A stretch of 64,000 nt of DNA, from sequence record NC_052659.1. The stretch is one strand, 5' to 3'. Position 1 is the stretch's first letter, and the number at the start of each line of letters is the position of its first letter. A model generated the notes under the pieces. It was not told the origin of the DNA. It was given only the letters and a program-made list of their open reading frames with translations, and did not search any database. Below are positions 13,546 through 64,000 of the stretch, one piece after another. Position numbers and translations under genes: made by a program. This DNA comes from Escherichia phage nieznany.

Positions 13546-13554
13546 GGAGGACTA

Positions 13555-19718: not shown

Positions 19719-19748
19719 TTGACAATATTAAACATTTTATGATAGGAT
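19719..19748 (+). promoter_or_regulatory. sigma70-like promoter (TTGACA-18-TAGGAT)
   Basis: TTGACA 19719..19724 and TAGGAT 19743..19748; same ATG-TAGGAT-type -10 context as the minus-strand tRNA promoters; ATG 19757 only 8 nt downstream. Confidence 0.35.
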
Positions 19749-19756
19749 AGCATTCA

Positions 19757-52423: not shown

Positions 52424-53425
52424 TTAAGCCGTAGTCAGTTTAACTACCAGTTCTGGACGGGTGTTAACTGCGAGCAGCGAGAATTCAGACTGAAGCTGAA
52501 TAGTGCGGTGCTGGCTGATCATGAAGGTATACAGTTCACGAGCCTGGGTGTTAGCCAGTTCTGGAGTATCCGCAGGAGCGTAGTGTGCCTGGAACATACC
52601 TTCGATACCCATAGGCAGAACATATGCTTCACCAGCAGGGATGTTACCGTGGATATCTTCAATGTAAGTTACACCGTTCCATTCGAACACCTGAACATCC
52701 ATGTTACCGCTAAGGCGGTCACGCAGAAGGTTAGGAGTTCCCTGGAAATACTGATATGCCTGGCGAACAAATGGAGAGTTAACCAGAGATGCGAAAAACT
52801 CACGAGAACACAGAGCTACGATACGGGTAGCGGTAGAGCCATCTTGTTTAGTATCGATGATGTAAGCACGAGCTTCTTGTTCGATAGTGGCTGCTGGAGA
52901 AACAGTGGTAGAAGCAAAGTCTACAGCAACAGATTTCTGGGTAGCACCCCATTCGGTATACCAGTTGTATGCAGAGTTAGCTGCACCACCTACGCCGTTA
53001 TAGGCACGACCCATAACTGCTTCTGCAAAGATTTTCTCTTTGGTTTTTGCTACGTCACGCAGAATCTGGGACATATAGCGGTTAACAACTTCAGCGTCTG
53101 TGCGCAGAGAGTCATTGATTCCTGCCATTGCAAAGCTACGGAAAGATTGAATATCTTGAGCTTTGATGTTTTTATCCAGAGGGAAGAACGGAATGCGGAA
53201 CGCTTTCAGTTCTGGATTTTTCATGGTCAGGAAGTTACGCTCACCACCACGCTCACGAGCGGAGATCAGAGCATCTTCAGCTTTTTCTTTACCGATTTCA
53301 ATAGCGGTAGTTGAATGATAGTCAACACTGAACAGATTCAGGCTGGCAATCAGTGTATCAGGGGAATCCTGAAGTTCGATCATAGGGCTGAAATCTACAA
53401 CCTGATCTAAAATTACTGCTGGCAT
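52424..53425 (-). CDS. major capsid protein
   Basis: 333 aa, position after scaffold/decoration genes, followed by a hairpin. Confidence 0.6.
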   Translation of the reverse strand: MPAVILDQVVDFSPMIELQDSPDTLIASLNLFSVDYHSTTAIEIGKEKAEDALISARERGGERNFLTMKNPELKAFRIPFFPLDKNIKAQDIQSFRSFAMAGINDSLRTDAEVVNRYMSQILRDVAKTKEKIFAEAVMGRAYNGVGGAANSAYNWYTEWGATQKSVAVDFASTTVSPAATIEQEARAYIIDTKQDGSTATRIVALCSREFFASLVNSPFVRQAYQYFQGTPNLLRDRLSGNMDVQVFEWNGVTYIEDIHGNIPAGEAYVLPMGIEGMFQAHYAPADTPELANTQARELYTFMISQHRTIQLQSEFSLLAVNTRPELVVKLTTA

Positions 53426-53446
53426 TATATTAATCTCCTATTAAAA

Positions 53447-53845
53447 TTAAGAAGTGAAAACGACTTTTTCGGTCAGTTTCAGATCATGTGTTTCCAGTGC
53501 TGCTACGCCAGCGTCATCTACCAGGGAGCCATCTTTGTAGTATACTGCAAAGCGGTTCAGAGTAAGATCACGTACGCCAACAACTGCGGTGAAAGTGTCA
53601 CCTACTGCTACATCGTCAATACCGAACAGAGCATCAGTCCAAAGCAGAACTTTAGCAGCATCGGCAGCTTCAGCTTTAGCAGCTTCAGTGTTGTCAGCTT
53701 TCAGGATAGAACCAATTTTCATGGTTGCTGTTTTAACCAGGTTAACTTCACGTACACAGTGTCCAAGGTCAGAGCTAAACACTCCACCCAGAACCAGGTG
53801 TCCGAATTCCTGGCGAGAGTTAGATAAAGTAATTCCTTTAGCCAT
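53447..53845 (-). CDS. putative head decoration protein
   Basis: 132 aa Ala/Gly/Val-rich ORF immediately upstream of major capsid gene. Confidence 0.3.
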   Translation of the reverse strand: MAKGITLSNSRQEFGHLVLGGVFSSDLGHCVREVNLVKTATMKIGSILKADNTEAAKAEAADAAKVLLWTDALFGIDDVAVGDTFTAVVGVRDLTLNRFAVYYKDGSLVDDAGVAALETHDLKLTEKVVFTS

Positions 53846-53864
53846 TTAATTTAATCTCCTAAGA

Positions 53865-54980
53865 TTATTGTTTCTGGGCTTTTTTAAGTTCAGCAGCTTT
53901 CTGACTAATCAGTTCAGAAGAAGATTTAGCTACAGGTTGAGTATTGATCACATCAACACCACGTTCTGTTCCAAATTCTTTCTTAACTGCGTCCACTTCT
54001 GCACGTGCTTTTTCGAATGCTTTGACGATAGTTTCAGCGATATCTTTATTGTCTACCAGATATTTAACGAGAGCTTCAACTTTGTCTTCTTCTACGAAAG
54101 AATAGGATTTAACAACAGTTGTATATTCTTCTTCGATACGAGCTTGTTCAGCTTTACGAAGTTCTTCTGCTTCCTGTTCTGCCTTAGCGATTTTTTCCTG
54201 TGCTTCAAGTTCTGCGGCTGCACGTGCATCTGCTGCTGCTTTTTCTACAGCTTCAGCGATCTGTGCTTTCATCAGTTCTTGGAATTCAGCAGATTTCAGG
54301 AATTCTTCTTTGTTGATATTTTCCAAAGGGGTTTCTCCTTTATTGATTCCAGTTGTGTTTGCAGATTTATCACCTGCGGGGTTAGCCTCTGCATCCACAG
54401 AGTTTGTATTAGCTTTAGCGTGAGCTTTCACTAAATAATCTTTAACTTGACTTTGTTTCAAGGAACTCTTAACGAGATTACTCAAAGCATCGTCTAAAAC
54501 GTCCTCAAAGAAATCAATGGAGATCATTACATCACCATCAACAACTTGATAATCAGTAACACGAACAACAGGTTTAGCAACCTCTTCAACTTCAACATTC
54601 AGTCCGTCAACTTTAAAGCCAACAGAGAACATACCGTTATCTGAACAGAAAATTGCAACGTTCGCATCGAAGTCAGCATCAATAACGTAAACCCAATCCC
54701 AACCAGCTTCAAATTTTTCACGCACTTTTTCAGAAATGCGATCCATCACTTGTTGAATATAGCTTTTACGTAACTCTGTAACATCTTCTCCCATTTTAGT
54801 GAGAGCTTCTAACTTTTCAAAAGTTATGTCTGGAGATCCGTCTGACTTAAATAAAAGGGGGGTATTATAACCAGATGCCGCTCCACCTTGAAAATCAAAA
54901 GTGTAAGCAATATGAGCACCTAGTGACTCTTCCGTAGCTTTTCCAGAAAAGTCTACGTTAGTTAAATATGTATTTGCCAC
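53865..54980 (-). CDS. putative scaffolding protein (possibly with protease function)
   Basis: C-terminal charged coiled coil KAEQEAEELRKAEQARIEEE; position between portal and capsid. Confidence 0.35.
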   Translation of the reverse strand: MANTYLTNVDFSGKATEESLGAHIAYTFDFQGGAASGYNTPLLFKSDGSPDITFEKLEALTKMGEDVTELRKSYIQQVMDRISEKVREKFEAGWDWVYVIDADFDANVAIFCSDNGMFSVGFKVDGLNVEVEEVAKPVVRVTDYQVVDGDVMISIDFFEDVLDDALSNLVKSSLKQSQVKDYLVKAHAKANTNSVDAEANPAGDKSANTTGINKGETPLENINKEEFLKSAEFQELMKAQIAEAVEKAAADARAAAELEAQEKIAKAEQEAEELRKAEQARIEEEYTTVVKSYSFVEEDKVEALVKYLVDNKDIAETIVKAFEKARAEVDAVKKEFGTERGVDVINTQPVAKSSSELISQKAAELKKAQKQ

Positions 54981-54982
54981 GA

Positions 54983-55462
54983 TTAGTCCTTCTTGACTTT
55001 AACGCCCATTGCGCCTATACTCAAACCTTTAAGAACGCCGTCTTTACGAGCTTGATATAATTCAGGGTCGTTGAATTGGATTTTAACGAGGGGAGTTCCT
55101 TCCACAACGAGTTCGTCACCAATGTAACAATCGACTTCATTTACCCAAGCTTTAATTGGAGAAAACTTATCGGTGTTCTTCATGTGACCAAGATTACCAC
55201 TAATGTTGGTAATATTCTCATTGAAGTTGTCAACCATCTTCCTGATTTCCAAATCAGACATGCGCTCTCCGTGGAGATCGTCTTCTTCAGGTGGACAATA
55301 CAAGACCTCAATAACCTGCATCTTTTCTTCATCAAATTTATTTTGTTTGACTAGAGTTTCAGGTTTTTGAGATGGTATAGAATCTTGTTGGGATTCAGAA
55401 TTCTCTTTAAAACCAGCGAAGGTTTTGAAGAGTTCCCACAGTGTATCTTTATTGAGTTCCAT
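54983..55462 (-). CDS. hypothetical head morphogenesis protein
   Basis: Position downstream of portal. Confidence 0.3.
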   Translation of the reverse strand: MELNKDTLWELFKTFAGFKENSESQQDSIPSQKPETLVKQNKFDEEKMQVIEVLYCPPEEDDLHGERMSDLEIRKMVDNFNENITNISGNLGHMKNTDKFSPIKAWVNEVDCYIGDELVVEGTPLVKIQFNDPELYQARKDGVLKGLSIGAMGVKVKKD

Positions 55463-55498
55463 TTGAAACCTCTTAAAAACAGATATCCCATAAATCTT

Positions 55499-55527
55499 AG
55501 TCTACAGGATATTTGTTGTTTTGTCAA
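55499..55527 (-). promoter_or_regulatory. sigma70-like promoter (TTGACA-17-TAGACT), minus strand
   Basis: Plus-strand TGTCAA at 55522..55527 within CTATTGACAA motif shared with tRNA promoters; weak -10. Confidence 0.3.
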
Positions 55528-55555
55528 TAGAAAAATTAAAAAATATTAAATATTT

Positions 55556-57121
55556 TTAATTCGACAGGTTTTGTGCTGAAGGATCTAAAGCAGAAACAGT
55601 ATCAGATGTTCCAGTTCCCGCTGTAGCTAAACCGTCTCCTGATCGTGAAGTTTTGTCAGGCATATAGTTATCCATGAATTCAAAGAATTTCTCTTTATTG
55701 GCAACAATATCGTCAGGGATGCGATATTCAAAACCAATTTTTTCAAGGAACTCGTTAATAACTTCTGGGGTTAAAGGTATTGCACCAGAGGCTACCAACT
55801 GCTGAATAGCTTTAGCATTTACTTCAATATCAGGATCACCCATTTCACCACTGACAAACTTAGGCATATCTTCATCAGAAAGGAAGATATTGTTTAGTCG
55901 TAGTGTTTGAGGGATCAGTTGAGAGTTTATAGCTTCTACAACAATATCTACATCTCGCTCAATAAAATGAGACAATAGTGTTTGTTTGTTGTCAGAAAGC
56001 GCAAAACTTCCTGCATCACCATCACCCATAATCAACACACCCGCACCAAAGCGGTTATAAATATCTAGCTTGCGTTGTTTGATTAGTGCTTGAGTGTCAA
56101 ACTGTTTACCCGTGCCATCAACACCTTGGAATACAAGATCGTATTGACGCATCACTGTGCCTTCATAAACGTCTGAAGGCAATACCATGTAGGCTTGCTC
56201 ACCAGAGTGCAGGTTAGCGATGTTGGCTTGGAGAACTCGAAGAGATTGTGCTTCATCCCCAGCAGGATCTAAAGATGCCCTGTTTAGAATGTCACTTGGA
56301 ACCTTAAGAACTGGCATACCACCTAAATCTTTAGATACCCCAATAACCTCAAATTCCTGAATAAGAGATTTTTCACGCCAGCTACGATATACAGCTAAAA
56401 GCGGACTAACTCCTAGTGGGTTATTCTCTGTAATGTTGCTACCAACAAATAGAACTTTACTGAAAGGAATTTCTTTAATACCAGTTTCTAAAGTTGTATT
56501 ACCTGGAGCTAACATCGTATTGGTGATATTCTGGTTAACAGATAGAATAGAACGTCCGTCTGCCGAATATGTAAAAGGTTGAGCCATGTGAAGAGTGTCT
56601 TGTGGTCTAAAAGCCAGTTTGGTTAATCGCCAATACCCAAAGTAAGGACTTTTAGGATCTTCATCCAACTCATAAACTTTCTCTGCGAATGCAAAACCAT
56701 ATTGCTTATATGTCAAAAGTGATCTAACATATTGACGTAGAGGGGCTTGCATATTGCGCAACATGTAATCAATAAACTTAGCAGCTTTTCTTGACTTTGC
56801 CGAGTTTACATTGTATTTTATCTTGAAATCAAAGAATGCTCTATCTACAAAGATATATGTAGCGTCAAGAGCAGTAGCTACATCAGGGTCTTCACCCATC
56901 TCTTTAAAAGTGCGAATACATTCTGGGAAACGAGTCTCATAAGGTTGCATGAAATTCGTAAATGCTTTGATTGAGTTTAATCCGATCGTTCCTATTTCAG
57001 GTGACAGGAGTAACGTTTTCTCTTTCTCTGCCTCTTTTGTTGGAGAGAGAGCAGCTTTATTTGCAGCACCTTTGTCCCAGTATTCTGACTTTTTAGTGTA
57101 CGTTCTTTTTCCTGTTGACAC
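55556..57121 (-). CDS. portal protein
   Basis: 521 aa ORF immediately downstream of large terminase. Confidence 0.5.
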   Translation of the reverse strand: MSTGKRTYTKKSEYWDKGAANKAALSPTKEAEKEKTLLLSPEIGTIGLNSIKAFTNFMQPYETRFPECIRTFKEMGEDPDVATALDATYIFVDRAFFDFKIKYNVNSAKSRKAAKFIDYMLRNMQAPLRQYVRSLLTYKQYGFAFAEKVYELDEDPKSPYFGYWRLTKLAFRPQDTLHMAQPFTYSADGRSILSVNQNITNTMLAPGNTTLETGIKEIPFSKVLFVGSNITENNPLGVSPLLAVYRSWREKSLIQEFEVIGVSKDLGGMPVLKVPSDILNRASLDPAGDEAQSLRVLQANIANLHSGEQAYMVLPSDVYEGTVMRQYDLVFQGVDGTGKQFDTQALIKQRKLDIYNRFGAGVLIMGDGDAGSFALSDNKQTLLSHFIERDVDIVVEAINSQLIPQTLRLNNIFLSDEDMPKFVSGEMGDPDIEVNAKAIQQLVASGAIPLTPEVINEFLEKIGFEYRIPDDIVANKEKFFEFMDNYMPDKTSRSGDGLATAGTGTSDTVSALDPSAQNLSN

Positions 57122-57190
57122 TTGTTCCTCCAGTCAGGTATAAAATCGTTAAGGCAAGGCTGTATTATATACAACCTCACCTATCTAGTT

Positions 57191-57219
57191 ATAATACACT
57201 TTAAAGTGACTTTTGTCAA
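57191..57219 (-). promoter_or_regulatory. sigma70-like promoter (TTGACA-17-TATTAT), minus strand
   Basis: Plus TGTCAA 57214..57219 and ATAATA 57191..57196 give consensus-like -35/-10 in the terminase-portal gap. Confidence 0.5.
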
Positions 57220-57222
57220 CAA

Positions 57223-59298
57223 TTATCTTTTACGGACACTATACGGTTGGTGAAATCCGCTGTTCATTCTACTGTATCCTGTAGGAGCATTTGTTGTTGT
57301 AGGGATAGCTACTGCTTTGAAAGTATTCTCTTTTGACAGAGTATTAAAACAAGAGGCAGCAGCATCGGGAATGTCATCTTTAATAGTGGCTGTAGATCTT
57401 TCACCATTGAAAGATTCCAATTCTTTATAAAAGTGGGTTAAAGTTTCCACATTAGGGAAAGAATCTTCAACAATATAAACAAAGCCGTTTTGACACGCAC
57501 TACTAAAAGGCATAAAACGCTGAAGCTTTTTCTTGTTACCTGGCATAGCATCTGGTTTAACAACAAAACCCTCTAGAATAAGTTTCTTTGCAGACTCTGT
57601 GTATTCTATTGTCCCAGCACCAGATGGGTCTTTAGGAAGCACTACTGTAACTTCTGGTCCATCAATCTTACATTGATTTAGAATCAGGTTATCCCTTTCC
57701 CCAGGTAGTCTTCGAAACCTTCCGAAAATTTTACTTTTCTCATCCACAGCATCATAATCATAGTCGCCAAAGATGTAGATATTACCATCTTGGTCTTTAC
57801 CCATTTTGACAGATGTTGTATAGTCTGGATAACGGTAAGTTTCTGTAGGAACTGAAACAGCTTTATCCCATGCTCGCATTAGTTTAAGATTGTTAGGAAC
57901 ATCTTTATAAGATATTTTATGTAACCATTCACGTTGAAAGAAAGATTCTTTCTGGATACGTGCAAACCAACAACCGTCCAGAAGCTGTGCTCTTTTTATC
58001 GCTGTTTGTGATTTAAGCTGTGCTAAGTAATTAGGGTTAAGCCTAATGAGTTCTGGGTTATCAAATATTGTCCCACCAATAAATACGAAAGTTTGTGGTT
58101 CAATAACAACTGTCTCCCCTGTATTAGGGTTTTCCATGAAACAGTTTTCTGGGTATTTTTCTTTCAGTTCTTCAGGTGTGTCAGCAAAAACAGGTTCATC
58201 GTTAACAATGATGAAATATTTTTGTTTACCACACATATCTTCTCTAGGATAACCACCCTCATCAAGATAAGGTAACACCCAATTCAAAACCCAACTATCT
58301 GCGTCAGGGTTACATGTGCACAACATGAAACTTGTTTCTGACTCTGAACGCATACGTCCCAGAAGATAGAGCATTTCATATTGTGTGAAGTGGGTTAACT
58401 CGTCAAAACCTACCATTGAATACTGTGTACCCTGATGGTTTGTTTCTGCTGTTACGTTATCATTTTCCAAATGGTCAAATTTGAGGGTTCCACCACCAGT
58501 GGCTTCAAAAATGATATCCATTGTACTTTCTTTTACGTGTGGTTGTAAAGGAAGATACAAACGTTTTGCTTCTGTAAACAGACCACCTGGTTTACGGTGA
58601 GCAGTGGTGTTCTTACGGAAAAGTATTCCACCAAACAAAGGGTCTTTGTAGGCGTATTTTAAAGCTTTCAGCAATAGCAGACGAGACTTGCCGCTATTCC
58701 CAGTAACGAAGCAGTGATCGCCACGTCTAAAGACAATATAGCTGCTTGGAGTCTCAAAACAATATTTCTTATCATCTGTTGAAATAACCTCGTGTATTTT
58801 TAAGTAAGTGCTCTTTTTACCAGGTATGTTAAAAGGAACACGTTTACCGAATGGATTTTCTACATAACCTTGCAGGGGTTTTCCTATTTGCTGTAATGCA
58901 ATAAGATCTCCTACAAGAATCTCGAAATGTTTCTTTGATTTCTTTTTCTTATAGAATACAAAACGGTGTTCCATACTAAGTTCTTGGAATAATCCTACAC
59001 CATTTGTTATTCTGTATAGGTTATCTCCATTTAAATCGTATTCTACAAAATAAGGTGTTACCAATTCTAAACGCTTATTCTTAGGATTGTATTGGTAAAT
59101 ATCCTCTCCCGAATATTCACTAATCTGCCTCCAACCATCTTTTGTAAGATATTCCGTTTCAGCAGAAACACATCCAGCGGCACCACCATAAATCATAACT
59201 TCTGGCATTAAATCCATTGCAAGAGTCTGTTTACCTGGTTGAGCCTTTACTTCAATATCTACTCCAGCTAAACTACCTGCTGCCTTTTTCTTTGCCAC
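57223..59298 (-). CDS. terminase large subunit, interrupted by a mini-intein in the Walker A P-loop
   Basis: Extein junction IYGGAAG|intein|SGKSRLLLLKA reconstitutes Walker A GGAAGSGKS; size and position upstream of portal. Confidence 0.8.
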   Translation of the reverse strand: MAKKKAAGSLAGVDIEVKAQPGKQTLAMDLMPEVMIYGGAAGCVSAETEYLTKDGWRQISEYSGEDIYQYNPKNKRLELVTPYFVEYDLNGDNLYRITNGVGLFQELSMEHRFVFYKKKKSKKHFEILVGDLIALQQIGKPLQGYVENPFGKRVPFNIPGKKSTYLKIHEVISTDDKKYCFETPSSYIVFRRGDHCFVTGNSGKSRLLLLKALKYAYKDPLFGGILFRKNTTAHRKPGGLFTEAKRLYLPLQPHVKESTMDIIFEATGGGTLKFDHLENDNVTAETNHQGTQYSMVGFDELTHFTQYEMLYLLGRMRSESETSFMLCTCNPDADSWVLNWVLPYLDEGGYPREDMCGKQKYFIIVNDEPVFADTPEELKEKYPENCFMENPNTGETVVIEPQTFVFIGGTIFDNPELIRLNPNYLAQLKSQTAIKRAQLLDGCWFARIQKESFFQREWLHKISYKDVPNNLKLMRAWDKAVSVPTETYRYPDYTTSVKMGKDQDGNIYIFGDYDYDAVDEKSKIFGRFRRLPGERDNLILNQCKIDGPEVTVVLPKDPSGAGTIEYTESAKKLILEGFVVKPDAMPGNKKKLQRFMPFSSACQNGFVYIVEDSFPNVETLTHFYKELESFNGERSTATIKDDIPDAAASCFNTLSKENTFKAVAIPTTTNAPTGYSRMNSGFHQPYSVRKR
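58696..59172 (-). mobile_element. mini-intein (159 aa) in terminase P-loop
   Basis: Cys1 codon TGT at 59170..59172, terminal Asn at 58696..58698, Ser+1; N- and C-terminal blocks homologous to the polymerase intein; no endonuclease domain. Confidence 0.65.
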
Positions 59299-59307
59299 AT
59301 TTCCTCC

Positions 59308-59652
59308 TTATTCAGCAATAATACCTTTTTCTTGCAGTGTTTTAATATATGTTTGTAAACCTAGAACCTTTCGTCTATCTTGCTCCCAAAGAGCATTGTT
59401 TTGAGTTTGGTTGTTAACAACTTCAGATCTACTAACCCCTTTTGCAATTTGATTTTTAGTGTATGGCACAGGTGTCGATACTTTATCCATCAAGTCCGAA
59501 TCTGGACCTTTAACCTTTTCTATGGCTACAGCCTTACACTCATCAATAAGAACTGGGGAAACTTTTGTTGATGATGAACAACCCGTCATCATTAGGGGCA
59601 AAGCAAGACATACTGCCAGAATTAGTTTTTGCATAATTCGTTGTATCCTCAT
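59308..59652 (-). CDS. o-spanin (Rz1-like outer-membrane lipoprotein)
   Basis: Signal peptide with lipobox LMMTGC; overlaps 3' end of i-spanin in another frame; alternative ATG at 59634. Confidence 0.5.
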   Translation of the reverse strand: MRIQRIMQKLILAVCLALPLMMTGCSSSTKVSPVLIDECKAVAIEKVKGPDSDLMDKVSTPVPYTKNQIAKGVSRSEVVNNQTQNNALWEQDRRKVLGLQTYIKTLQEKGIIAE

Positions 59653-59935
59653 TGATCGTTTGTTTCTTCTTCTCTAAATCTGCTTTTAATTGTGCATTGT
59701 TTTTAGACAAGTTGTTTATTTGAGTATTTAATAATGCTCTTTCTTCATCTGCTCTTTTTTGAAGAACATCAAAATCTTGTTTTGCTTTTGCTTGGGCTGC
59801 TTGATATACTTGCGTTTGATAGGCAACACCATCTTTGTAGCCAGACTCACGTATCTTGTTATAAGCAAACATTCCGGCAAGAATAAGAACAACAATTAAA
59901 ACAAAACTTAATACAGTTTTAGTCTTTAGATTCAT
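59543..59935 (-). CDS. i-spanin (Rz-like)
   Basis: N-terminal TM helix then periplasmic coiled coil; overlapped by o-spanin. Confidence 0.5.
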   Translation of the reverse strand: MNLKTKTVLSFVLIVVLILAGMFAYNKIRESGYKDGVAYQTQVYQAAQAKAKQDFDVLQKRADEERALLNTQINNLSKNNAQLKADLEKKKQTINEDTTNYAKTNSGSMSCFAPNDDGLFIINKSFPSSY

Positions 59936-60134
59936 TATCTTCTACTTCCTCATAAAATTTTATTTTAGGAAGAGAAGGGGCGTTGTTAACTATCTTCTTC
60001 ACTTCCATTGGTTGAGCCTCCGCTAGGATCTCTTCCCAAGTCTTCTCTGTCATCATAAAGTTCTTCCTCCAAGTTCCAAGCCCGTGTGTAATCATTCTTT
60101 TTATCTTTATGATAAGAAGAACGGTTAAAATCAT
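59919..60134 (-). CDS. hypothetical small protein
   Basis: ORF adjacent to spanins; start uncertain. Confidence 0.25.
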   Translation of the reverse strand: MILTVLLIIKIKRMITHGLGTWRKNFMMTEKTWEEILAEAQPMEVKKIVNNAPSLPKIKFYEEVEDNESKD

Positions 60135-60210
60135 TTTTAACTACAAAATTGCGCATATTTTATCCTCCTCATATCTGATCTTATCACAAAATGATATATA
60201 ATTGCAAGCA

Positions 60211-60248
60211 TTAAAAATAAAAAAGCCCCTAACCTTTCGGAGAGGGGT
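60211..60248 (-). terminator. rho-independent terminator (minus strand)
   Basis: GC-rich hairpin (CCCCT..AGGGG) with long A-run on plus side giving U-run on minus transcript. Confidence 0.5.
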
Positions 60249-60296
60249 GTTAAAAATAACAAGGAGGAGGGGCAAAGCCCCAAGAGAGGAGAGGGA

Positions 60297-60593
60297 TTAG
60301 ATTACGATCTTTTTAGGAACGTCATCTGTATTCTGCACGGCAGGGGTTTCTTCTTCCATAGCTTCATAATGTTCTTCTAACCATTCTTCTACTTGCTCTT
60401 TAATAGCTTTAGCTGCTTGGAAGCGGAGAGGTTTTGCTGCATCCTTATCATTAACAAGTTCAACAATATACCGCATAGCTTCTAAATAATGCTCTGCAAA
60501 TAATTCTTTTACACTTGCTTGCGCCGCATCCATTGCGTAAATCTGTTGCATTTCGGCTGTTGGTCTTCCACGACCACGTTTTAGTTTAGGCAT
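60297..60593 (-). CDS. small DNA-binding-like protein (possible terminase small subunit)
   Basis: N-terminal KRGRGRP AT-hook-like motif, helical acidic remainder; function is inference. Confidence 0.3.
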   Translation of the reverse strand: MPKLKRGRGRPTAEMQQIYAMDAAQASVKELFAEHYLEAMRYIVELVNDKDAAKPLRFQAAKAIKEQVEEWLEEHYEAMEEETPAVQNTDDVPKKIVI

Positions 60594-60613
60594 AATAAAA
60601 TCCTCCTAAACTT

Positions 60614-60642
60614 TATCTTAACATATAAAAAATAATAAGTCA
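60614..60642 (-). promoter_or_regulatory. sigma70-like promoter (TTGACT-17-TAAGAT), minus strand
   Basis: Plus AGTCAA 60637..60642 and ATCTTA 60614..60619; RBS and start 60593 immediately downstream. Confidence 0.3.
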
Positions 60643-60661
60643 AGTTTTATTCAATAGATAG

Positions 60662-60685
60662 CAAAAAGCCTCCAATAAGGAGGCT
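60662..60685 (-). terminator. rho-independent terminator downstream of tRNA cluster (minus strand)
   Basis: GCCTCC-AATAA-GGAGGC hairpin with A-run on plus side. Confidence 0.45.
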
Positions 60686-60800
60686 AATAAATACTGTTAA
60701 TTTGAAATGCTTTATTATAATTGTGCGTTAAGGAGTCGCACCCCTCCATCTTAGAAGGAACCAGGCAAGGTCTTCAAAGATACCGCTGGCAAGCGATATT

Positions 60801-60879
60801 TGGAGGCGGGAATTGGATTTGAACCAATGATCTCCAGCATATGAAACTGGCGAGGACGACCAGACTCCTCTATCCCGCT
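60801..60879 (-). tRNA. tRNA-Met or tRNA-Ile2 (anticodon CAT), CCA encoded
   Basis: Manual cloverleaf: acceptor AGCGGGA/TCCCGCC (1-72 mismatch), anticodon loop TTCATAT, T-arm ATTGG-TTCAAAT-CCAAT, discriminator U. Confidence 0.6.
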
Positions 60880-60885
60880 ATTAGG

Positions 60886-60955
60886 TATCCCGTGCTGGAT
60901 TCGAACCAGCATCACAATAAGCTGTGGAACTCTTATCCTGTAAGTCTAACGGGAA
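60886..60955 (-). tRNA. tRNA-like gene with non-canonical anticodon region (anticodon undetermined)
   Basis: Canonical T-arm GCTGG-TTCGAAT-CCAGC and 6-bp acceptor stem, but no D-arm and only a 5-bp stem with 10-nt loop where the anticodon arm should be. Confidence 0.35.
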
Positions 60956-60957
60956 AC

Positions 60958-61031
60958 TGGTTGTTTCGACAAGAATCGAACTTGTGTCTCACGATTATCA
61001 GTCGTGGGTTCTACCATTGAACTACGAAACA
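60958..61031 (-). tRNA. tRNA-Ile (anticodon GAT), CCA encoded
   Basis: Acceptor CGAAACA/TGTTTCG, D-arm GTTC-AATGGTA-GAAC, anticodon loop CTGATAA, T-loop TTCGATT. Confidence 0.8.
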
Positions 61032-61037
61032 TTAAAT

Positions 61038-61114
61038 TGGTCGGAATTGCAGGATTCGAACCTGCGACCCTACGCTCCCAAAGCGTATGCTCTACCAAAC
61101 TGAGCTAAATTCCG
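61038..61114 (-). tRNA. tRNA-Pro (anticodon TGG), CCA encoded
   Basis: Acceptor AATTCCG/CGGAATT, D-arm GCTC..GAGC, anticodon loop TTTGGGA, T-loop TTCGAAT. Confidence 0.8.
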
Positions 61115-61207
61115 TCATAACATTCTAAAGGTACACCGCAAAAGAAAGTGTTCGGCGGCTCCTCGTTTTTAACTTCACACTTGAGGTAGTGACTCACCTT
61201 TGTTATA

Positions 61208-61283
61208 TGGCTGGTCTGTCTGGATTTGAACCAAACCTACGACAGTCAAAGTGTCGTGTGCTACCGGACTACACTACAAACCA
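61208..61283 (-). tRNA. tRNA-Gln (anticodon TTG), CCA encoded
   Basis: Acceptor TGGTTTG/CAGACCA, anticodon stem CGACA/TGTCG, loop CTTTGAC, T-loop TTCAAAT. Confidence 0.7.
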
Positions 61284-61381
61284 ATAAATCATTTAATGAA
61301 GGGCAACCAGAAGAGGTGTGAGAGAAGGAGAAAACCATGAGTAAAAGAGAAAGTTTTCTGGCAACCCTTTATTAAATAATT

Positions 61382-61455
61382 TGGAGCGTTCTACGAGGAT
61401 CGAACTCGTGCCGCCGACTTGGAAGGACGGAATGCTACCGCTACACCAAGAACGC
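61382..61455 (-). tRNA. tRNA-Gly (anticodon TCC), CCA encoded
   Basis: Acceptor GCGTTCT/AGAACGC, anticodon loop CTTCCAA, discriminator U as typical of bacterial tRNA-Gly. Confidence 0.7.
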
Positions 61456-61466
61456 CCTACATCTTT

Positions 61467-61496
61467 ACTATACTACATTTTACTATTGGTTGTCAA
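61467..61496 (-). promoter_or_regulatory. sigma70-like promoter for tRNA sub-cluster 1 (TTGACA-18-TATAGT), minus strand
   Basis: Plus TGTCAA 61491..61496 within CTATTGACAA motif; -10 about 6 nt upstream of tRNA-Gly 5' end. Confidence 0.45.
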
Positions 61497-61771
61497 TAGT
61501 TTTATTGAGTGGGACAGTGACGAGTATCCCGTTGGGTGACTAGCCCTACGTTCGGTAAGCTAACTTAAAATAATACAAAACCAAAGTCAAATATTATTCT
61601 TCGTTGCTGTCGATGGGAGAGCCGCTTCTTCTTTTGCCCCATCCAACCCTACTCCGGTCAAGTTTCAGGTAACTCTTTTTGTGTGATCAACACAATACTA
61701 AGAACACTGTCTTTCGAACAGACCTTGTGCACAGGATACGACGATCAATCACAGTGCTCTTAATGTTGTGT

Positions 61772-61846
61772 TGGTGCTCCCACTCTGAATCGAACAGAGA
61801 TCCACGGATTACAAAACCGTTGTAATAGCCATTATACTATAGGAGC
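61772..61846 (-). tRNA. tRNA-Thr (anticodon TGT), CCA encoded
   Basis: Acceptor GCTCCTA/TGGGAGC, anticodon loop TTTGTAA, T-arm CTCTG-TTCGATT-CAGAG. Confidence 0.65.
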
Positions 61847-61852
61847 AAAGCT

Positions 61853-61929
61853 GGGACTCGGCAGGATTCGATACCTGCAATTCCAGAAGCCTCTTGGCGA
61901 CTGGGGGTTTACCTTAACTCTACAAGTCC
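61853..61929 (-). tRNA. tRNA-like gene with non-canonical T-loop and anticodon region (anticodon undetermined)
   Basis: 7-bp acceptor stem GGACTTG/CGAGTCC, T-stem GCAGG/CCTGC with 8-nt loop TATCGAAT, no clean 5-7-5 anticodon arm. Confidence 0.3.
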
Positions 61930-61936
61930 ATAATTC

Positions 61937-62023
61937 TGGCGATGAGTATAGGATTTGAACCTATATCGTTCTTTCGAACACGGATTAACAGTCCGCCGCT
62001 TAAACCATTCAGCCAACTCATCT
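61937..62023 (-). tRNA. tRNA with Asn anticodon (GTT) on a long-variable-arm scaffold, CCA encoded
   Basis: Perfect acceptor ACTCATC/GATGAGT, discriminator G, anticodon arm GCGGA-CTGTTAA-TCCGT, plus a 15-nt extra arm GTTCGAAAGAACGAT. Confidence 0.55.
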
Positions 62024-62028
62024 TAATT

Positions 62029-62116
62029 TGGTGGTGAGTGATGGAGTCGAACCACCCGAATCGCAATGATAACAGATTTACAGTCTGCCCCGCTACCCCT
62101 ACGGAATTAACTCACC
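62029..62116 (-). tRNA. tRNA-Tyr (anticodon GTA), type II, CCA encoded
   Basis: Acceptor ACTCACC/GGTGAGT, anticodon arm GCAGA-CTGTAAA-TCTGT, long variable arm, T-loop TTCGACT. Confidence 0.7.
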
Positions 62117-62245
62117 TAAATACTAATATTTAAATTCTTTTTAAAATAGCCAGTGTTCACACCACTAACTATGAGTTATCGGTAAGATGGTGGGGCCATC
62201 TGCCGAAAGTTTACTCTATTAAAGTAAGCCATATTAAAAAGAACT

Positions 62246-62331
62246 TGGCGGTAGATGTAGGACTCGAACCTACACGCCGTTTCCGACTACAGTTTAGCAA
62301 ACTGTCGTGGCTACCATTTCACCAATCTACC
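62246..62331 (-). tRNA. tRNA-Ser (anticodon GCT), type II, CCA encoded
   Basis: Acceptor ATCTACC/GGTAGAT, 3-bp D-stem GTG/CAC, anticodon arm ACAGT-TTGCTAA-ACTGT, 15-nt variable arm, discriminator G. Confidence 0.75.
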
Positions 62332-62336
62332 TAATC

Positions 62337-62427
62337 TGGCGGAAGGAGGGAGAGTCGAACTCCCAAGGCTCTTTCAAGCTCGGCGGTTTTCAAGACCGTT
62401 TTCGTCGCCACGTCGATTTGCCCTTCC
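62337..62427 (-). tRNA. tRNA-Ser (anticodon TGA), type II, CCA encoded
   Basis: Acceptor GGAAGGG/TCCTTCC, anticodon loop CTTGAAA, long variable arm, T-arm GGGAG-TTCGACT-CTCCC; D-region atypical. Confidence 0.6.
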
Positions 62428-62436
62428 ATACTTATA

Positions 62437-62465
62437 ATCTAACATAAAATAATGTTTGTTGTCAA
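62437..62465 (-). promoter_or_regulatory. sigma70-like promoter for tRNA sub-cluster 2 (TTGACA-17/18-TTAGAT), minus strand
   Basis: Plus TGTCAA 62460..62465 within CTATTGACAA motif; ends a few nt upstream of tRNA-Ser(TGA) 5' end. Confidence 0.4.
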
Positions 62466-62661
62466 TAGTTTTTTAAAACATTTTACCATGAATGGTGACT
62501 CCACCAACCCCCGTTCTCCACGAACGGTGCTCTTCGAGCATTTATGTCTTCTAATATAACCGTGGCCTTTGTTTATAATGTCTGACATACTTGCCTCATT
62601 CTCTGCCACCATGATCAGTAGTGGGTTCAAATCACTTGAGCTAATTCATGTTAAAATGTTC

Positions 62662-62736
62662 TGGTGTCTTTACAAGGAATCGAACCTTGACTAAGAGTTT
62701 AGAAGACTCCTGTGCTATCCATTACACCATAAAGAC
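62662..62736 (-). tRNA. tRNA-Arg (anticodon TCT), CCA encoded
   Basis: Acceptor TAAAGAC/GTCTTTA, D-arm GTGT..GCAC, anticodon loop CTTCTAA, T-arm CAAGG-TTCGATT-CCTTG. Confidence 0.75.
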
Positions 62737-62738
62737 GT

Positions 62739-62813
62739 TGGTGGCCCTGGCTGGTTTCGATCCAGCTACCTATCGGTTATGAGCCGACAGCTCTCCCATT
62801 GAGCTACAGGGCC
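62739..62813 (-). tRNA. tRNA-Met, elongator-type (anticodon CAT), CCA encoded
   Basis: Perfect acceptor CAGGGCC/GGCCCTG, D-arm GCTC-AATGGGA-GAGC, anticodon loop CTCATAA, atypical T-loop ATCGAAA. Confidence 0.65.
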
Positions 62814-63022
62814 ATAAATGTGGTAACAGAGACGCTGACGATTGTAGAGAACCGCTACATTCTCTAAGACCAAGCCCAACTTTCAGCGTAAAAGTTCTTG
62901 AGCCGAGACTGTTCCTTTTCCTCTTTGGTAGCTAACCTCTGAAGAAGTAGTCTCTAACACTACCGCAGTGCAAGCCCCTCTTAACAAAAGTCAACGACAC
63001 TGTTACCACACTTGATGAACGT

Positions 63023-63052
63023 ATCCTAACATATGAAGGATACGTTTGTCAA
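63023..63052 (-). promoter_or_regulatory. sigma70-like promoter for tRNA sub-cluster 3 (TTGACA-18-TAGGAT), minus strand
   Basis: Plus TGTCAA 63047..63052 within CTATTGACAA motif; -10 TAGGAT in the same ATG-TAGGAT context as plus-strand promoter at 19719. Confidence 0.4.
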
Positions 63053-63059
63053 TAGTTAT

Positions 63060-63308
63060 TTAAGCATATTCTGCTACTTCTTCACTATCTTTCTTTTCCA
63101 GAAGAGCAACAACCAAAGCTTCTGCGTTAAAAGTATTAATTTCAAGATCCATCTCTCGCATCAGAGCCAAGAAATCAATAACTTTAACATCTTTAGTGAT
63201 TACAATAGAAGTTGTACCATTGTTTTCAGATGTGTATTTTTCTGGATGGAAAAGAAAAACTGCATTGCCGTTACCATCTTCAAACACGTGTTTTTCTAAT
63301 AGAGACAT
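63060..63308 (-). CDS. hypothetical protein
   Basis: ORF with RBS AGGAGG before ATG 63308. Confidence 0.35.
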   Translation of the reverse strand: MSLLEKHVFEDGNGNAVFLFHPEKYTSENNGTTSIVITKDVKVIDFLALMREMDLEINTFNAEALVVALLEKKDSEEVAEYA

Positions 63309-63316
63309 TGTTCCTC

Positions 63317-63568
63317 CTAATCTGTTAGTTGTTCGTCCTCTACCAAGTTTGACACGAGAACGTCTGTTATATATTGATGCTGATAAACCCTTTCGGGACT
63401 ATCATCAAAAGCCAAACCTGTGCAAATAGAACAGAGGTCTGATTCCTTGATGACTCCATTTTTATCACGTCTGGAGTGGTTTGTCAAATGCCTATTACAA
63501 GCACGGCACCTAAAATAAAAGCTATTTTGCATATATCCTTCGAACCCCAAATGGGGAGTGATCGGCAT
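63317..63568 (-). CDS. putative zinc-ribbon protein
   Basis: CRACNRHL...CSICTG Cys pairs. Confidence 0.35.
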   Translation of the reverse strand: MPITPHLGFEGYMQNSFYFRCRACNRHLTNHSRRDKNGVIKESDLCSICTGLAFDDSPERVYQHQYITDVLVSNLVEDEQLTD

Positions 63569-63605
63569 CTCCTCACTTCTAGTTTAGCACGAAGGATATC
63601 TTAAG

Positions 63606-63791
63606 TCAACTAGGAATAATTTTATCCCTTTTGGTTTCATAACCAGTCCAATCTAAATCCTCCCAGCCTTCATCATCGTCTAACACATTGTCATCATCAT
63701 AAGATGCAATGTTATAAATAGAACGTGGATTACAAGACATACAATCTTTAATAGGCACATGATGCCATTTGCACGGATTCTCACTAATCAT
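63606..63791 (-). CDS. hypothetical small protein
   Basis: ORF with RBS GGAGG before ATG 63791. Confidence 0.3.
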   Translation of the reverse strand: MISENPCKWHHVPIKDCMSCNPRSIYNIASYDDDNVLDDDEGWEDLDWTGYETKRDKIIPS

Positions 63792-63799
63792 TGCACACC

Positions 63800-64000
63800 T
63801 CCATTCTTGTTAAGATATTTCGTACTGTACTTCATACTAATCTATAGATCAAGTATTATTTATAATAATTTATTATTTTATTTTTAATTGATAGAAGTTG
63901 ATCTGTACGTACCAGTTCTGATACACTGTACCTGTTTGTTAGATCTAATAATTATTTATTATTAATATTTAATAATTATTAATCTAGTACGGAGTACAGT
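63800..64000. repeat. AT-rich region with short direct and inverted repeats (GTAC- and AGATC-containing)
   Basis: Repeated ACTGTAC/GTACAGT and (T)AGATC motifs in ATTATT-rich sequence; no ORF. Confidence 0.4.

What the first reader, a model, noticed from the sequence alone, without database searches (positions are those of the whole stretch)
60801..63052. tRNA island in three sub-clusters, each behind a promoter sharing the CTATTGACAA motif
Fourteen tRNA or tRNA-like genes, nearly all with encoded CCA, lie in three groups on the minus strand (60801..61455, 61772..62427, 62662..62813). Immediately upstream of each group in the direction of transcription is the plus-strand motif TTGTCAATAG (61491, 62460, 63047), whose reverse complement gives a consensus -35 TTGACA followed 17-18 nt later by TATAGT, TTAGAT or TAGGAT. 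The same motif recurs at 55522 upstream of a head gene, and a plus-strand TTGACA-18-TAGGAT promoter at 19719 shares the ATG-TAGGAT -10 context.
Basis: seen in the sequence. Interest (0 to 1): 0.4.

Follow-up and report, generated by a model that had tools for sequence, protein, structure and literature searches.

The report
Phage tRNA island with internal promoters
This is the tRNA gene cluster of a known type of E. coli phage (phAPEC8/tuntematon group), apparently driven by three host-type promoters; that part is ordinary, but the gaps between the tRNAs hold conserved, folded RNAs that nobody has annotated.

Summary
The minus strand of 60801-62813 carries 12 canonical tRNA genes, all with encoded CCA, plus two tRNA-like elements without CCA. 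Each island copy is a near-consensus sigma-70 promoter: TTGACA, 18 nt, then TATAGT, TAGATT or TAGGAT.

The window is a Phapecoctavirus; its island is identical to phage tuntematon. Promoter function is supported in silico only. The composite motif is 6-fold enriched genome-wide, and 40-fold with an extended -10. P1 and P2 are conserved in position in a second genus while their spacers diverge.

Three corrections apply:
- The CTA flank of the 10-mer is not conserved in relatives.
- No terminator separates the groups, so the promoters are tandem within one unit that ends at a terminator at 60685-60667.
- P3 sits 233 nt upstream of its first tRNA.

The gaps that define the "three groups" are conserved structured RNAs missing from Rfam. 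S2 (about 188 nt) is shared with Seunavirus phages and has 19 covarying pairs. S1 is a 203-nt leader. An 85-nt hairpin recurs in unrelated phages.

As stated, the finding is ordinary. The unannotated RNAs are the modestly novel part.

The parts
63023..63055 (-). P3 promoter: CTATTGACAA 63055-63046, -35 TTGACA 63052-63047, 18-nt spacer, TG, -10 TAGGAT 63028-63023. Predicted start is near 63016.
   Evidence: In phiWec179 the -35 and TGTTAAGAT are kept while the spacer changes and shrinks to 17 nt.
62814..63016 (-). S1: 203-nt structured leader RNA. Its 5' and 3' ends pair in a helix of about 22 bp. It ends a few nt before the first tRNA.
   Evidence: MFE -72.3 kcal/mol, z = -4.4. Against phiWec179 (80% identity): 65 pairs, 8 compensatory, 3 one-sided, 0 broken. 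Found only in Phapecoctavirus. No Rfam hit.
62739..62813 (-). tRNA with anticodon CAT. Called Met by ARAGORN and Ile-CAT by tRNAscan in ASO2A. CCA encoded.
62662..62736 (-). tRNA-Arg (TCT), CCA encoded.
62473..62661 (-). S2: conserved structured RNA of about 188 nt with 8 helices. It starts right after the CCA of tRNA-Arg and ends at P2. In Seunavirus it ends at the 5' end of tRNA-Leu.
   Evidence: z = -4.0. In 9 sequences from two phage subfamilies: 59 pairs, 96.6% paired, 19 pairs with changes on both sides against 4-5 in slid controls, 0/500 shuffles. The covariance model finds one copy per genome. No Rfam hit.
62436..62468 (-). P2 promoter: -35 62465-62460, 18-nt spacer, TG, -10 TAGATT 62441-62436. 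It ends 8 nt before tRNA-Ser (TGA).
   Evidence: Conserved in phiWec179 and in position in Justusliebigvirus (L143 3852).
62337..62427 (-). tRNA-Ser (TGA), CCA encoded.
   Evidence: Rfam sub-threshold hit to the tRNA-Sec model, 37.4 bits. tRNAscan calls it Ser-TGA in ASO2A. Anticodon loop CTTGAAA and CCA read from sequence.
62246..62331 (-). tRNA-Ser (GCT), CCA encoded.
62117..62245 (-). S4: structured spacer RNA with an 11-bp closing stem and three hairpins.
   Evidence: 93% identical over 104 nt in Justusliebigvirus. 38 pairs: 3 compensatory, 2 broken.
62029..62116 (-). tRNA-Tyr (GTA), CCA encoded.
   Evidence: Rfam 39 bits. ASO2A annotation..
61937..62022 (-). tRNA-Asn (GTT), CCA encoded.
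61847..61936 (-). TLa: tRNA-shaped RNA. It has a 7-bp acceptor-like stem and a T-arm-like hairpin with an 8-nt loop. A tetraloop hairpin takes the place of the anticodon arm. No CCA.
   Evidence: Not called by ARAGORN or Rfam. Fold. 98% conserved in phiWec179. 70% conserved in Justusliebigvirus, with 4 compensatory pairs in the acceptor and T stems.
61772..61846 (-). tRNA-Thr (TGT), CCA encoded.
61500..61771 (-). S3: 272-nt spacer. Its first ~85 nt (61687-61771) form a long hairpin module with an invariant internal core.
   Evidence: The hairpin is 81-85% identical to noncoding regions of E. coli prophages, a Salmonella plasmid and unrelated siphophages, once 125 nt upstream of tRNA-Arg. The stems covary.
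61467..61499 (-). P1 promoter: -35 61496-61491, 18-nt spacer, -10 TATAGT 61472-61467. It ends 11 nt before tRNA-Gly.
   Evidence: Conserved in position in Justusliebigvirus, with the same 11-nt distance to tRNA-Gly (L143 2508).
61382..61455 (-). tRNA-Gly (TCC), CCA encoded.
61284..61381 (-). S5: 98-nt hairpin spacer with a conserved loop, CUCAUGGUUUUCUCCUUC.
61208..61283 (-). tRNA-Gln (TTG), CCA encoded.
61115..61207 (-). S6: 93-nt spacer with a closing stem.
61038..61114 (-). tRNA-Pro (TGG), CCA encoded.
60958..61031 (-). tRNA-Ile (GAT), CCA encoded.
60880..60957 (-). TLb: degenerate tRNA-like element. It has a canonical T-arm (GCTGGTTCGAATCCAGC) and an acceptor stem with one U-U mismatch. 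The anticodon loop has 6 nt. No CCA.
   Evidence: Not called by ARAGORN or Rfam..
60801..60879 (-). tRNA-Met (CAT), 79 nt, with a 5-bp D stem and an A1-C72 mismatch. CCA encoded. The phAPEC8 record labels it 'Pseudo-CAT'.
60715..60800 (-). S7: conserved 3' trailer of about 80 nt.
   Evidence: 94% identical in phiWec179 and 90% in Justusliebigvirus.
60657..60685 (-). Intrinsic terminator closing the island: AGCCTCC-TTATT-GGAGGCT followed by TTTTTGC.
   Evidence: Annotated as a terminator in ASO2A.
55499..55530 (-). Fourth copy of CTATTGACAA: TTGACA-17-TAGACT. It lies in the gap between the homologues of tuntematon_162 and _161, at the head of the 161-158 operon, which contains the decoration and major head proteins.
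19719..19748 (+). TTGACA-18-(TG)-TAGGAT promoter, intergenic between ORFs 19118-19711 and 19757-20149. The -10 ends 8 nt before the ATG.

Best explanation
The segment is the tRNA island of a lytic Phapecoctavirus (phAPEC8/tuntematon type). The proposed mechanism has five steps.

1. Transcription. Host RNA polymerase with sigma-70 transcribes the island leftward from three tandem near-consensus promoters, P3, P2 and P1. Each has TTGACA, an unusual 18-nt spacer, an A-rich upstream tract and, for P2 and P3, an extended -10.

2. Read-through. No terminator separates the promoters. Transcripts should therefore read through to the single strong terminator at 60685-60667, and downstream tRNAs receive the summed output of the upstream promoters.

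3. Processing. Host enzymes cut the polycistronic precursors: RNase P at the tRNA 5' ends, and RNase E, RNase III and exonucleases at the 3' ends. CCA is encoded, so it does not need to be added.

4. tRNA function. The 12 tRNAs decode mostly A-ending codons (AGA, ACA, CCA, GGA, CAA, TCA, probably ATA). The phage uses these codons far more than E. coli does.

5. Spacer RNAs. The same cuts that free the tRNAs should release the spacers S1-S7, TLa and TLb. These are conserved, tightly folded RNAs whose two ends pair. They are probably stable by-product or accessory RNAs, like T4 species I and II RNAs.

Shown: sequence features, statistics, conservation and covariation. Inferred: promoter use, read-through, processing, and stability or function of the spacer RNAs.
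For: tRNAs and CCA.

Promoter matches and TG.

Enrichment: the 10-mer occurs 4 times against 0.27 expected. Genome-scale, TTGACA-N16-18-TAnnnT occurs 56 times against 9.3, and the N15-TGN class 7 times against 0.17, while plain TTGACA is not enriched (149 against 137).

Phylogenetic footprint: -35, TG, -10 and spacing are kept while spacers mutate in phiWec179. P1 and P2 are conserved in position in Justusliebigvirus, and P1 keeps the same 11-nt distance to tRNA-Gly.

Terminators: only one terminator with a GC-rich stem and a T-run lies on the transcribed strand after the island; none lies between the groups.

Codon usage in 30 long ORFs of the window: AGA is 19% of Arg codons, ACA 40% of Thr, CCA 38% of Pro. 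The rV5 paper quotes 5.1%, 14.6% and 19.1% for E. coli O157.

Literature: rV5-like phages carry consensus sigma-70 promoters all over the genome (PMC3606486). T4 makes one ~1.75-kb precursor for 8 tRNAs plus species I and II RNAs (PMC2330249).

Spacer RNA structure.
Against: No transcript 5' ends, Northern blots or reporter data exist for any Phapecoctavirus in the searched library.

An 18-nt spacer is sub-optimal for sigma-70 (established knowledge), so strengths are unknown. P1 lacks the TG.

P3 is not conserved in position in Justusliebigvirus. There the promoter precedes the upstream small gene instead.

Read-through from promoters upstream of 63060 could supply much of the transcription.

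The long helices of S1-S3 might pause or terminate polymerase in ways the simple terminator scan cannot see.
Confidence: 0.8

Rival explanations
1. The island is transcribed mainly by read-through from promoters upstream (for example 63609-63581, or the divergent AT-rich region at about 63.8-64.0 kb). Under this view the three internal consensus matches contribute little. They would be weak, or used only at a particular time in infection.
For: No terminator lies between the upstream small genes (63791-63060) and P3, and the stop codon of the 82-aa ORF is 4 nt from CTATTGACAA. All three sites have the sub-optimal 18-nt spacer. In Justusliebigvirus the first tRNA follows the upstream gene directly, with no promoter of its own.
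Against: Perfect -35 hexamers, TG extensions and A-rich upstream tracts are kept across lineages while neighbouring bases drift. That pattern argues for selection on promoter function. About 0.03 sites of the N18 class are expected by chance in 2.5 kb of one strand, and 3 are seen (derived).
Confidence: 0.12
2. The repeated CTATTGACAA blocks are primarily junction sequences for modular recombination of tRNA and RNA cassettes. This would be analogous to the promoter-early stem-loops at module borders in T4-like phages (recalled from memory). Any promoter activity would be secondary.
For: The island is strongly mosaic between tuntematon and phiWec179. Blocks of 97-100% identity (P1-Gly-S5-Gln-S6; TLa; Arg and Ile-CAT) lie next to blocks of 60-82% identity or outright replacement (Tyr, Asn, S1, S2, the second half of S3). 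In Justusliebigvirus, spacer slots hold small ORFs instead of RNAs.
Against: Apart from the promoter elements, the copies share no extended homology; their spacers and flanks are unrelated. Ten base pairs is short for homologous exchange. Identity breakpoints do not obviously coincide with the motif.
Confidence: 0.05
3. The matches are chance occurrences in AT-rich intergenic DNA.
For: At its lenient threshold, the generic promoter scan finds as many sites in the region as in shuffles (8 against 9.0+/-3.3).
Against: The exact 10-mer occurs 4 times against 0.27 expected, with 0 of 100 shuffles reaching 4. The composite classes are 6- to 40-fold enriched. All copies lie on the transcribed strand in non-coding gaps, and they are conserved in relatives.
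Confidence: 0.01

Closest known systems
Bacteriophage T4 tRNA gene cluster with species I and II stable RNAs
   Same: Both are clustered phage tRNA genes co-transcribed as a polycistronic precursor, with non-tRNA structured RNAs of unknown function that the processing machinery releases. In both, one terminator lies after the last RNA (PMC2330249). T4 species I RNA is also an RNase III substrate (Paddock et al. 1976, recalled from memory).
   Different: T4 mainly uses a MotA-dependent middle promoter upstream of the whole cluster. Here there are three internal consensus sigma-70-type promoters. The spacer RNAs here match no Rfam family, and sequence similarity to T4 species I and II RNAs was not tested. 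They are also more numerous: two of about 190-200 nt, plus S3-S7 and two tRNA-like elements.
Consensus sigma-70 promoters of rV5-like phages (rV5, PVP-SE1)
   Same: rV5 has 33 predicted promoters of the TTGACA-N15-20-TATAAT type spread over the genome, 11 of them with an extended -10 (PMC3606486). PVP-SE1 has an annotated promoter inside its tRNA island. The three sites here fit that class.
   Different: These sites are not annotated in any of the five Phapecoctavirus records inspected: tuntematon, ASO2A, phiWec179, phAPEC8 and ESCO13. They form a sub-class with an 18-nt spacer and TGT-TAGnnT. This differs from the roughly 17 promoters of the tuntematon early region, which have a 16-nt spacer, TAAGAT or TAAACT, and a conserved GTATCACATAGG downstream.
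E. coli tRNA operons
   Same: Both have sigma-70 promoters, an encoded CCA on every tRNA, short 5' leaders removed by RNase P, and an intrinsic terminator at the end (established knowledge).
   Different: Host operons do not carry internal tandem promoters every 0.6-1 kb, or long structured spacer RNAs with paired ends. The predicted leaders here are only about 2-5 nt (P2, P1), or a 203-nt folded RNA (P3).
Phage-associated large or ornate ncRNAs next to tRNAs (GOLLD, ROOL)
   Same: These are structured non-coding RNAs of unknown function that often lie beside tRNA genes in phages (recalled from memory; both are Rfam families).
   Different: No Rfam family matches S1, S2, S3 or TLa even at E<=1. 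The elements here are much smaller (80-200 nt) and appear to be cut out of the tRNA precursor itself.

Membership tests
sigma-70-dependent promoter | -35 hexamer close to TTGACA | tested here: met
   All three sites, plus 55527 and 19719, have a perfect TTGACA.
sigma-70-dependent promoter | -10 hexamer TAnnnT close to TATAAT, at 17+/-1 nt | tested here: met
   TATAGT, TAGATT and TAGGAT, all at 18 nt. Two are preceded by TGn.
sigma-70-dependent promoter | Located upstream of, and oriented towards, a transcribed gene, in non-coding DNA | tested here: met
   P1 ends 11 nt before tRNA-Gly. P2 ends 8 nt before tRNA-Ser. P3 lies before the S1 leader and a tRNA.
sigma-70-dependent promoter | Elements conserved in relatives while flanking and spacer bases vary | tested here: met
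   phiWec179 and Justusliebigvirus for P1 and P2. P3 is conserved only within Phapecoctavirus.
sigma-70-dependent promoter | Primary transcript 5' end 6-9 nt downstream of the -10; activity with sigma-70 holoenzyme | not testable with these tools
   No transcriptome of a Phapecoctavirus was found.
bacterial-type tRNA gene | Cloverleaf recognised by ARAGORN, Infernal or tRNAscan, with a 7-nt anticodon loop | tested here: met
   Met for 12 genes. Not met for TLa (61847-61936) and TLb (60880-60957), which stay 'tRNA-like' only.
bacterial-type tRNA gene | Aminoacylation and use in translation | not testable with these tools
   Only the codon-usage match is available.
intrinsic terminator | GC-rich hairpin followed by a U-tract on the transcribed strand | tested here: met
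   60685-60667: 7-bp stem with 5 GC pairs, followed by TTTTTGC. It is independently annotated in ASO2A. None lies between the sub-clusters.
T4-type stable RNAs co-processed with tRNAs (species I/II) | Encoded inside the tRNA transcription unit, non-tRNA, with a conserved fold | tested here: met
   S1 and S2: z = -4.4 and -4.0, with covariation. S2 abuts a CCA on one side and a tRNA 5' end (Seunavirus) or P2 on the other.
T4-type stable RNAs co-processed with tRNAs (species I/II) | Accumulates as a discrete stable RNA; cut out by RNase P or RNase III | not testable with these tools
   Needs Northern blots or RNA-seq and cleavage assays.
T4-type stable RNAs co-processed with tRNAs (species I/II) | Sequence homology to T4 rnaC or rnaD | not tested
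   Searches with S1 and S2 returned only Phapecoctavirus and Seunavirus. T4-like phages matched the island only through their tRNAs.
any Rfam 15 family other than tRNA | Covariance-model match | tested here: not met
   Nothing credible at E<=1 in 60400-63400. The weak RyhB, YrlA and sX4 hits fall on the terminator or on tRNAs.

The most novel reading that the evidence does not exclude
The island may be as much an ncRNA island as a tRNA island. It holds at least four undescribed structured-RNA families:
- S2, about 188 nt, shared by two phage subfamilies and carrying invariant loops.
- S1, the 203-nt leader.
- TLa, the anticodon-less tRNA mimic.
- The 85-nt S3 hairpin module, which recurs next to tRNAs and in noncoding regions of unrelated phages and prophages.

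These RNAs would be cut out of the tRNA precursor by tRNA-processing enzymes and then act in trans. Possible roles are decoys or inhibitors of host tRNA-targeting defences or RNases, or regulators of processing. The alternative is that they are inert spacers.
Probability: 0.3. Interest if true: 0.65.

Novelty: new member of a known kind. Interest (0 to 1): 0.3.

Why it matters
As stated, the finding adds three unannotated but conventional host-type promoters to a well-known kind of phage tRNA cluster. That helps annotation and the engineering of phAPEC8-like therapeutic phages, but it is not surprising.

The less ordinary result is that about 1.3 kb of the 2.4-kb island is neither tRNA nor protein-coding. 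It consists of conserved folded RNAs with covariation support, and one of them is shared between two phage subfamilies. If these RNAs accumulate and act in trans, they would be new phage ncRNA families in genomes used for phage therapy. They would also be a tractable modern counterpart to the T4 species I and II RNAs, whose function, to my knowledge, is still unexplained.

Tried and rejected
- Rfam at gathering threshold and at E<=1 gave nothing but tRNAs. The weak RyhB, YrlA and sX4 hits are the terminator or tRNAs.
- Protein-coding reading of the spacers: only short ORFs of 25-63 aa. One-nt indels between lineages and compensatory rather than 3-periodic substitutions argue against coding.
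- Pfam on the four small flanking ORFs and on the homologue of the 'tRNA nucleotidyltransferase' gene: no family at E<=0.01.
- IMG/VR scan with the 14-mer GGTGGAGTCACCAT returned only chance hits.
- The 17-base gapped pattern CTGATCAT-N6-9-GAGAATGAG re-found only Phapecoctavirus and Seunavirus in IMG/VR. In the genome and metagenome collections it was swamped by chance matches. Screening those loci with nhmmer added only three Seunavirus-type copies.
- The S2 covariance model found no paralogue in the window, in the rest of tuntematon, in Justusliebigvirus or in the E. coli prophage locus. S1 and S2 are therefore not detectably related.
- The E. coli genome search with all spacers found no host counterpart except the S3 hairpin, and that only in prophage regions.
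- My first shuffle script timed out.
- I first placed the 19719 promoter inside a CDS, using a constant offset to MN850618. The window is not collinear with that record in its first 25 kb, and the site is in fact intergenic.
- The 'whole genome' used for statistics is therefore a composite: tuntematon 1-38620, then the window, then tuntematon 102621 to the end.
- A sigma-S or T4 MotA-type reading of the promoters was considered and dropped. There is no -13 C, no MotA box, and the -35 is perfect.

Full report
**Identity of the window.** The segment 60400-63400 is 100% identical to Escherichia phage tuntematon (MN850618, Phapecoctavirus, Stephanstirmvirinae) and 97-99% identical to about 60 other phAPEC8-like phages. 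The window is not tuntematon itself. Positions 52880-64000 are 99.98-100% identical to it, but the first 25 kb reaches only about 98% identity, with indels, to the best record. A single coordinate offset to the record is therefore valid only for the right-hand part of the window.

**Check of the observation: tRNAs.** ARAGORN tRNAs on the minus strand. Rfam adds a tRNA at 62032-62116 (39 bits) and a sub-threshold hit at 62341-62427. In the 99%-identical phage ASO2A, tRNAscan calls these two Tyr-GTA and Ser-TGA, and calls the CAT tRNA at 62739-62813 Ile-CAT.
- All 12 tRNAs end in an encoded CCA.
- Both have acceptor-like and T-arm-like helices but no 7-nt anticodon loop and no CCA, and no tRNA finder calls them.

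**Check of the observation: motif.** TTGTCAATAG occurs exactly four times, at 55521, 61490, 62459 and 63046. The expectation is 0.27.

**Are the sites promoters?**

*Sequence.* On the minus strand the three island copies read TTGACA-18-TATAGT (P1), TTGACA-18-TAGATT (P2) and TTGACA-18-TAGGAT (P3). P2 and P3 have a TGn extended -10, and all three follow an A-rich tract.

*Statistics.* I used a composite genome: tuntematon flanks plus the window.

| Pattern | Observed | Expected |
|---|---|---|
| TTGACA alone | 149 | 137 |
| TTGACA-N16-18-TAnnnT | 56 | 9.3+/-3.1 |
| 18-nt spacer with TGn | 7 | 0.17 |
| CTATTGACAA | 5 (all minus strand) | 0.68 |

All figures are; the strand of the CTATTGACAA copies comes.

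*Conservation.* phiWec179 is a Phapecoctavirus that is about 80% identical in the variable blocks. There P3 and P2 keep TTGACA and TGTTAAGAT or TGTTAGATT. Their spacers carry 6-8 substitutions, and P3 has a 1-nt deletion. In the sister genus Justusliebigvirus, a TTGACA-18-TAGAGT site ends 11 nt before tRNA-Gly, the same distance as P1. A TTGACA-18-TAGATT site precedes tRNA-Ser (TGA), like P2. The spacer sequences there are unrelated.

*Assessment.* This footprint is the best available evidence for function. No transcript mapping for this phage group was found. The rV5 paper had already noted that rV5-like phages carry consensus sigma-70 promoters genome-wide, 11 of 33 with extended -10 regions (PMC3606486). 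None of the five inspected Phapecoctavirus records annotates a promoter in the island.

**Corrections to the interpretation.**
1. The 10-mer is not a conserved unit. Relatives have GTATTGACAA, GTGTTGACAA, CTACTTGACAA and CCTCTTGACAA. The four copies in the window share nothing beyond the promoter elements themselves.
2. No intrinsic terminator lies between the groups. The only convincing one on the transcribed strand is at 60685-60667, after the last tRNA and a conserved 80-nt trailer (annotated in ASO2A). The promoters are best read as tandem and internal within one leftward unit, so downstream tRNAs receive cumulative transcription (inference).
3. P1 and P2 end 11 and 8 nt before mature tRNA 5' ends, which predicts leaders of only about 5 and 2 nt. 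P3 is followed by a 203-nt leader.
4. The copy at 55521 lies between the homologues of tuntematon_162 and _161, at the head of the operon that contains the decoration and major head proteins.
5. The plus-strand site at 19719 is intergenic. Its -10 ends 8 nt before the ATG of ORF 19757-20149, which would give a nearly leaderless mRNA.

**What fills the gaps.** The stretches that divide the island into "three groups" are not empty.

*S1 (63016-62814)*
- It starts at the predicted P3 start site and folds with its two ends paired in a helix of about 22 bp (MFE -72.3 kcal/mol, z = -4.4).
- Against phiWec179, 65 predicted pairs show 8 compensatory and 3 one-sided changes and none broken.

*S2 (62661-62473)*
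- It begins right after the CCA of tRNA-Arg and has z = -4.0.
- Homologues at about 70% identity sit in the tRNA islands of Seunavirus phages (Vequintavirinae: PVP-SE1, GAP31, 4MG and others). There its 3' end abuts the 5' end of tRNA-Leu.
- On nine sequences the consensus fold has 59 pairs in 8 helices, 96.6% paired. Nineteen pairs changed on both sides, against 4-5 for slid controls, and 0 of 500 shuffles reach this.
- Its invariant unpaired blocks are UUAGCUCA, CUGAUCAU, GAGAAUGAG and GGUGGAGUCACC.
- A covariance model finds exactly one copy per genome and none in Justusliebigvirus.

*Other spacers*
- S4, S5, S7 and TLa are conserved in Justusliebigvirus at 93%, 81%, 90% and 70%.
- TLa keeps its acceptor and T stems through compensatory changes.

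*S3 hairpin (first 85 nt of S3, 61771-61687)*
- This long hairpin has an invariant internal core.
- It recurs at 81-85% identity in noncoding regions of E. coli prophages, a Salmonella plasmid, Klebsiella siphophage SCNJ1-C (125 nt upstream of tRNA-Arg) and Nonanavirus PJ16. Its stems covary.

*Not coding, not known.* None of these elements matches an Rfam family. None looks protein-coding: one-nt indels separate the lineages, and the substitutions are compensatory.

**Mechanism.**
- *Shown:* the gene content, the promoter and terminator signatures, their conservation, and the folded nature of the spacers.
- *Inferred transcription:* host sigma-70 polymerase starts at P3, P2 and P1 and reads to the terminator.
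- *Inferred processing:* RNase P and 3' processing release the tRNAs, and with them the spacer RNAs. The long end-to-end helices of the spacers are plausible RNase III sites or protection against exonucleases.
- *tRNA role:* the tRNAs serve A-ending codons that the phage uses heavily. AGA is 19% of Arg codons, ACA 40% of Thr and CCA 38% of Pro in the window. The rV5 paper quotes 5.1%, 14.6% and 19.1% for E. coli O157.

**Comparison with known systems.** The nearest precedent is the T4 tRNA cluster. [quoted passage not shown] This island differs in three ways. It has internal consensus promoters rather than one middle promoter. It has more and larger spacer RNAs. S1 and S2 searches found only Phapecoctavirus and Seunavirus; homology to T4 species I and II was not tested directly.

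**Verdict.** As stated, the finding is correct and ordinary. It is a known phage's tRNA cluster with conventional, previously unannotated host-type promoters, that is, a new member of a known kind. The extra value lies in the unannotated structured RNAs, whose function is open.

Noticed in passing
window 62473-62661 (-); L004 2504-2690, L005 2497-2683 and others: S2 is a ~188-nt structured RNA shared by Phapecoctavirus and Seunavirus tRNA islands. It has 19 covarying pairs and four invariant single-stranded blocks, and it is absent from Rfam.
   Followed up: yes
window 61687-61771 (-); L148 2501-2583; L389 1501-1584; L390 1501-1558: The S3 hairpin is an 85-nt module with the invariant core GAUUGAUCGUCGU...CAAGGUCUGYUCGAA. 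It recurs in E. coli prophages, inside a noncoding stretch of about 800 nt running from a promoter to a terminator, between the portal and terminase genes. It also occurs in a Salmonella plasmid and in unrelated siphophages, once just upstream of tRNA-Arg and tRNA-Met.
   Followed up: partly
window 61847-61936 (-); L143 2944-3022: TLa is a tRNA-shaped RNA with no anticodon loop and an 8-nt T-loop. It is conserved across two genera, with compensatory changes. It is more conserved between tuntematon and phiWec179 (98%) than the neighbouring tRNA-Thr.
   Followed up: partly
window 61325-61375 (+), antisense to S5: The conserved loop of S5 reads, on the opposite strand, AAGGAGAAAACCATG. That is a perfect Shine-Dalgarno sequence plus an ATG, opening a 12-codon mini-ORF (MSKRESFLATLY). 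The SD-ATG is also conserved in Justusliebigvirus, where the ORF has 8 codons. On the tRNA strand the same loop exposes an anti-SD-like UCUCCUUC.
   Followed up: no
L144 (tuntematon 6000-17400, minus strand), outside the window: About 17 promoters, roughly one per small early gene, form a distinct class. Each has an A-rich tract, TTGACA, a 16-nt spacer, TAAGAT or TAAACT, and a conserved downstream GTATYACRTAGG. This differs from the 18-nt-spacer class of the tRNA island.
   Followed up: no
window 19719-19757 (+): The TTGACA-18-TAGGAT promoter ends 8 nt before the ATG of ORF 19757-20149, which implies a nearly leaderless mRNA.
   Followed up: partly
window 19118-19711 (+): This ORF is homologous to tuntematon_125, which is annotated 'tRNA nucleotidyltransferase / poly(A) polymerase'. 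The tuntematon protein has no Pfam match at E<=0.01, so the annotation is unsupported here. If it were real, it would be relevant to the CCA-less tRNA-like RNAs.
   Followed up: partly
window 1-25000: The left part of the window is only ~98% identical, with indels, to the closest public phage records, while the tRNA island is 100% identical to tuntematon. The source genome is a mosaic relative, not tuntematon itself.
   Followed up: partly
L143 3992-3870 (-), Justusliebigvirus alia: A separate TTGACA-17-TATAGT promoter drives an odd element resembling tRNA-Arg (TCT) without a D-arm. It has a long variable region and an encoded CCA, and ARAGORN does not call it.
   Followed up: no
window 60801-60879 (-): The last tRNA-Met (CAT) has 79 nt, a 5-bp D stem and an A1-C72 mismatch. 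It lacks the three G-C pairs of initiator anticodon stems. The phAPEC8 record labels it 'Pseudo-CAT'.
   Followed up: partly
Klebsiella phage ZCKP1 (MH252123) 38156-41869, homologous to window 60400-63400: This relative carries an insertion of about 713 bp inside the island, annotated as an XRE/HigA-type antitoxin. Together with the small ORFs in the Justusliebigvirus spacer slots, it shows that the island accepts cargo.
   Followed up: no
window 63800-64000: A very AT-rich stretch with short direct repeats (annotated repeat_region in tuntematon) lies at the divergence point between the leftward tRNA/structural unit and the rightward small genes. It probably holds divergent promoters.
   Followed up: no
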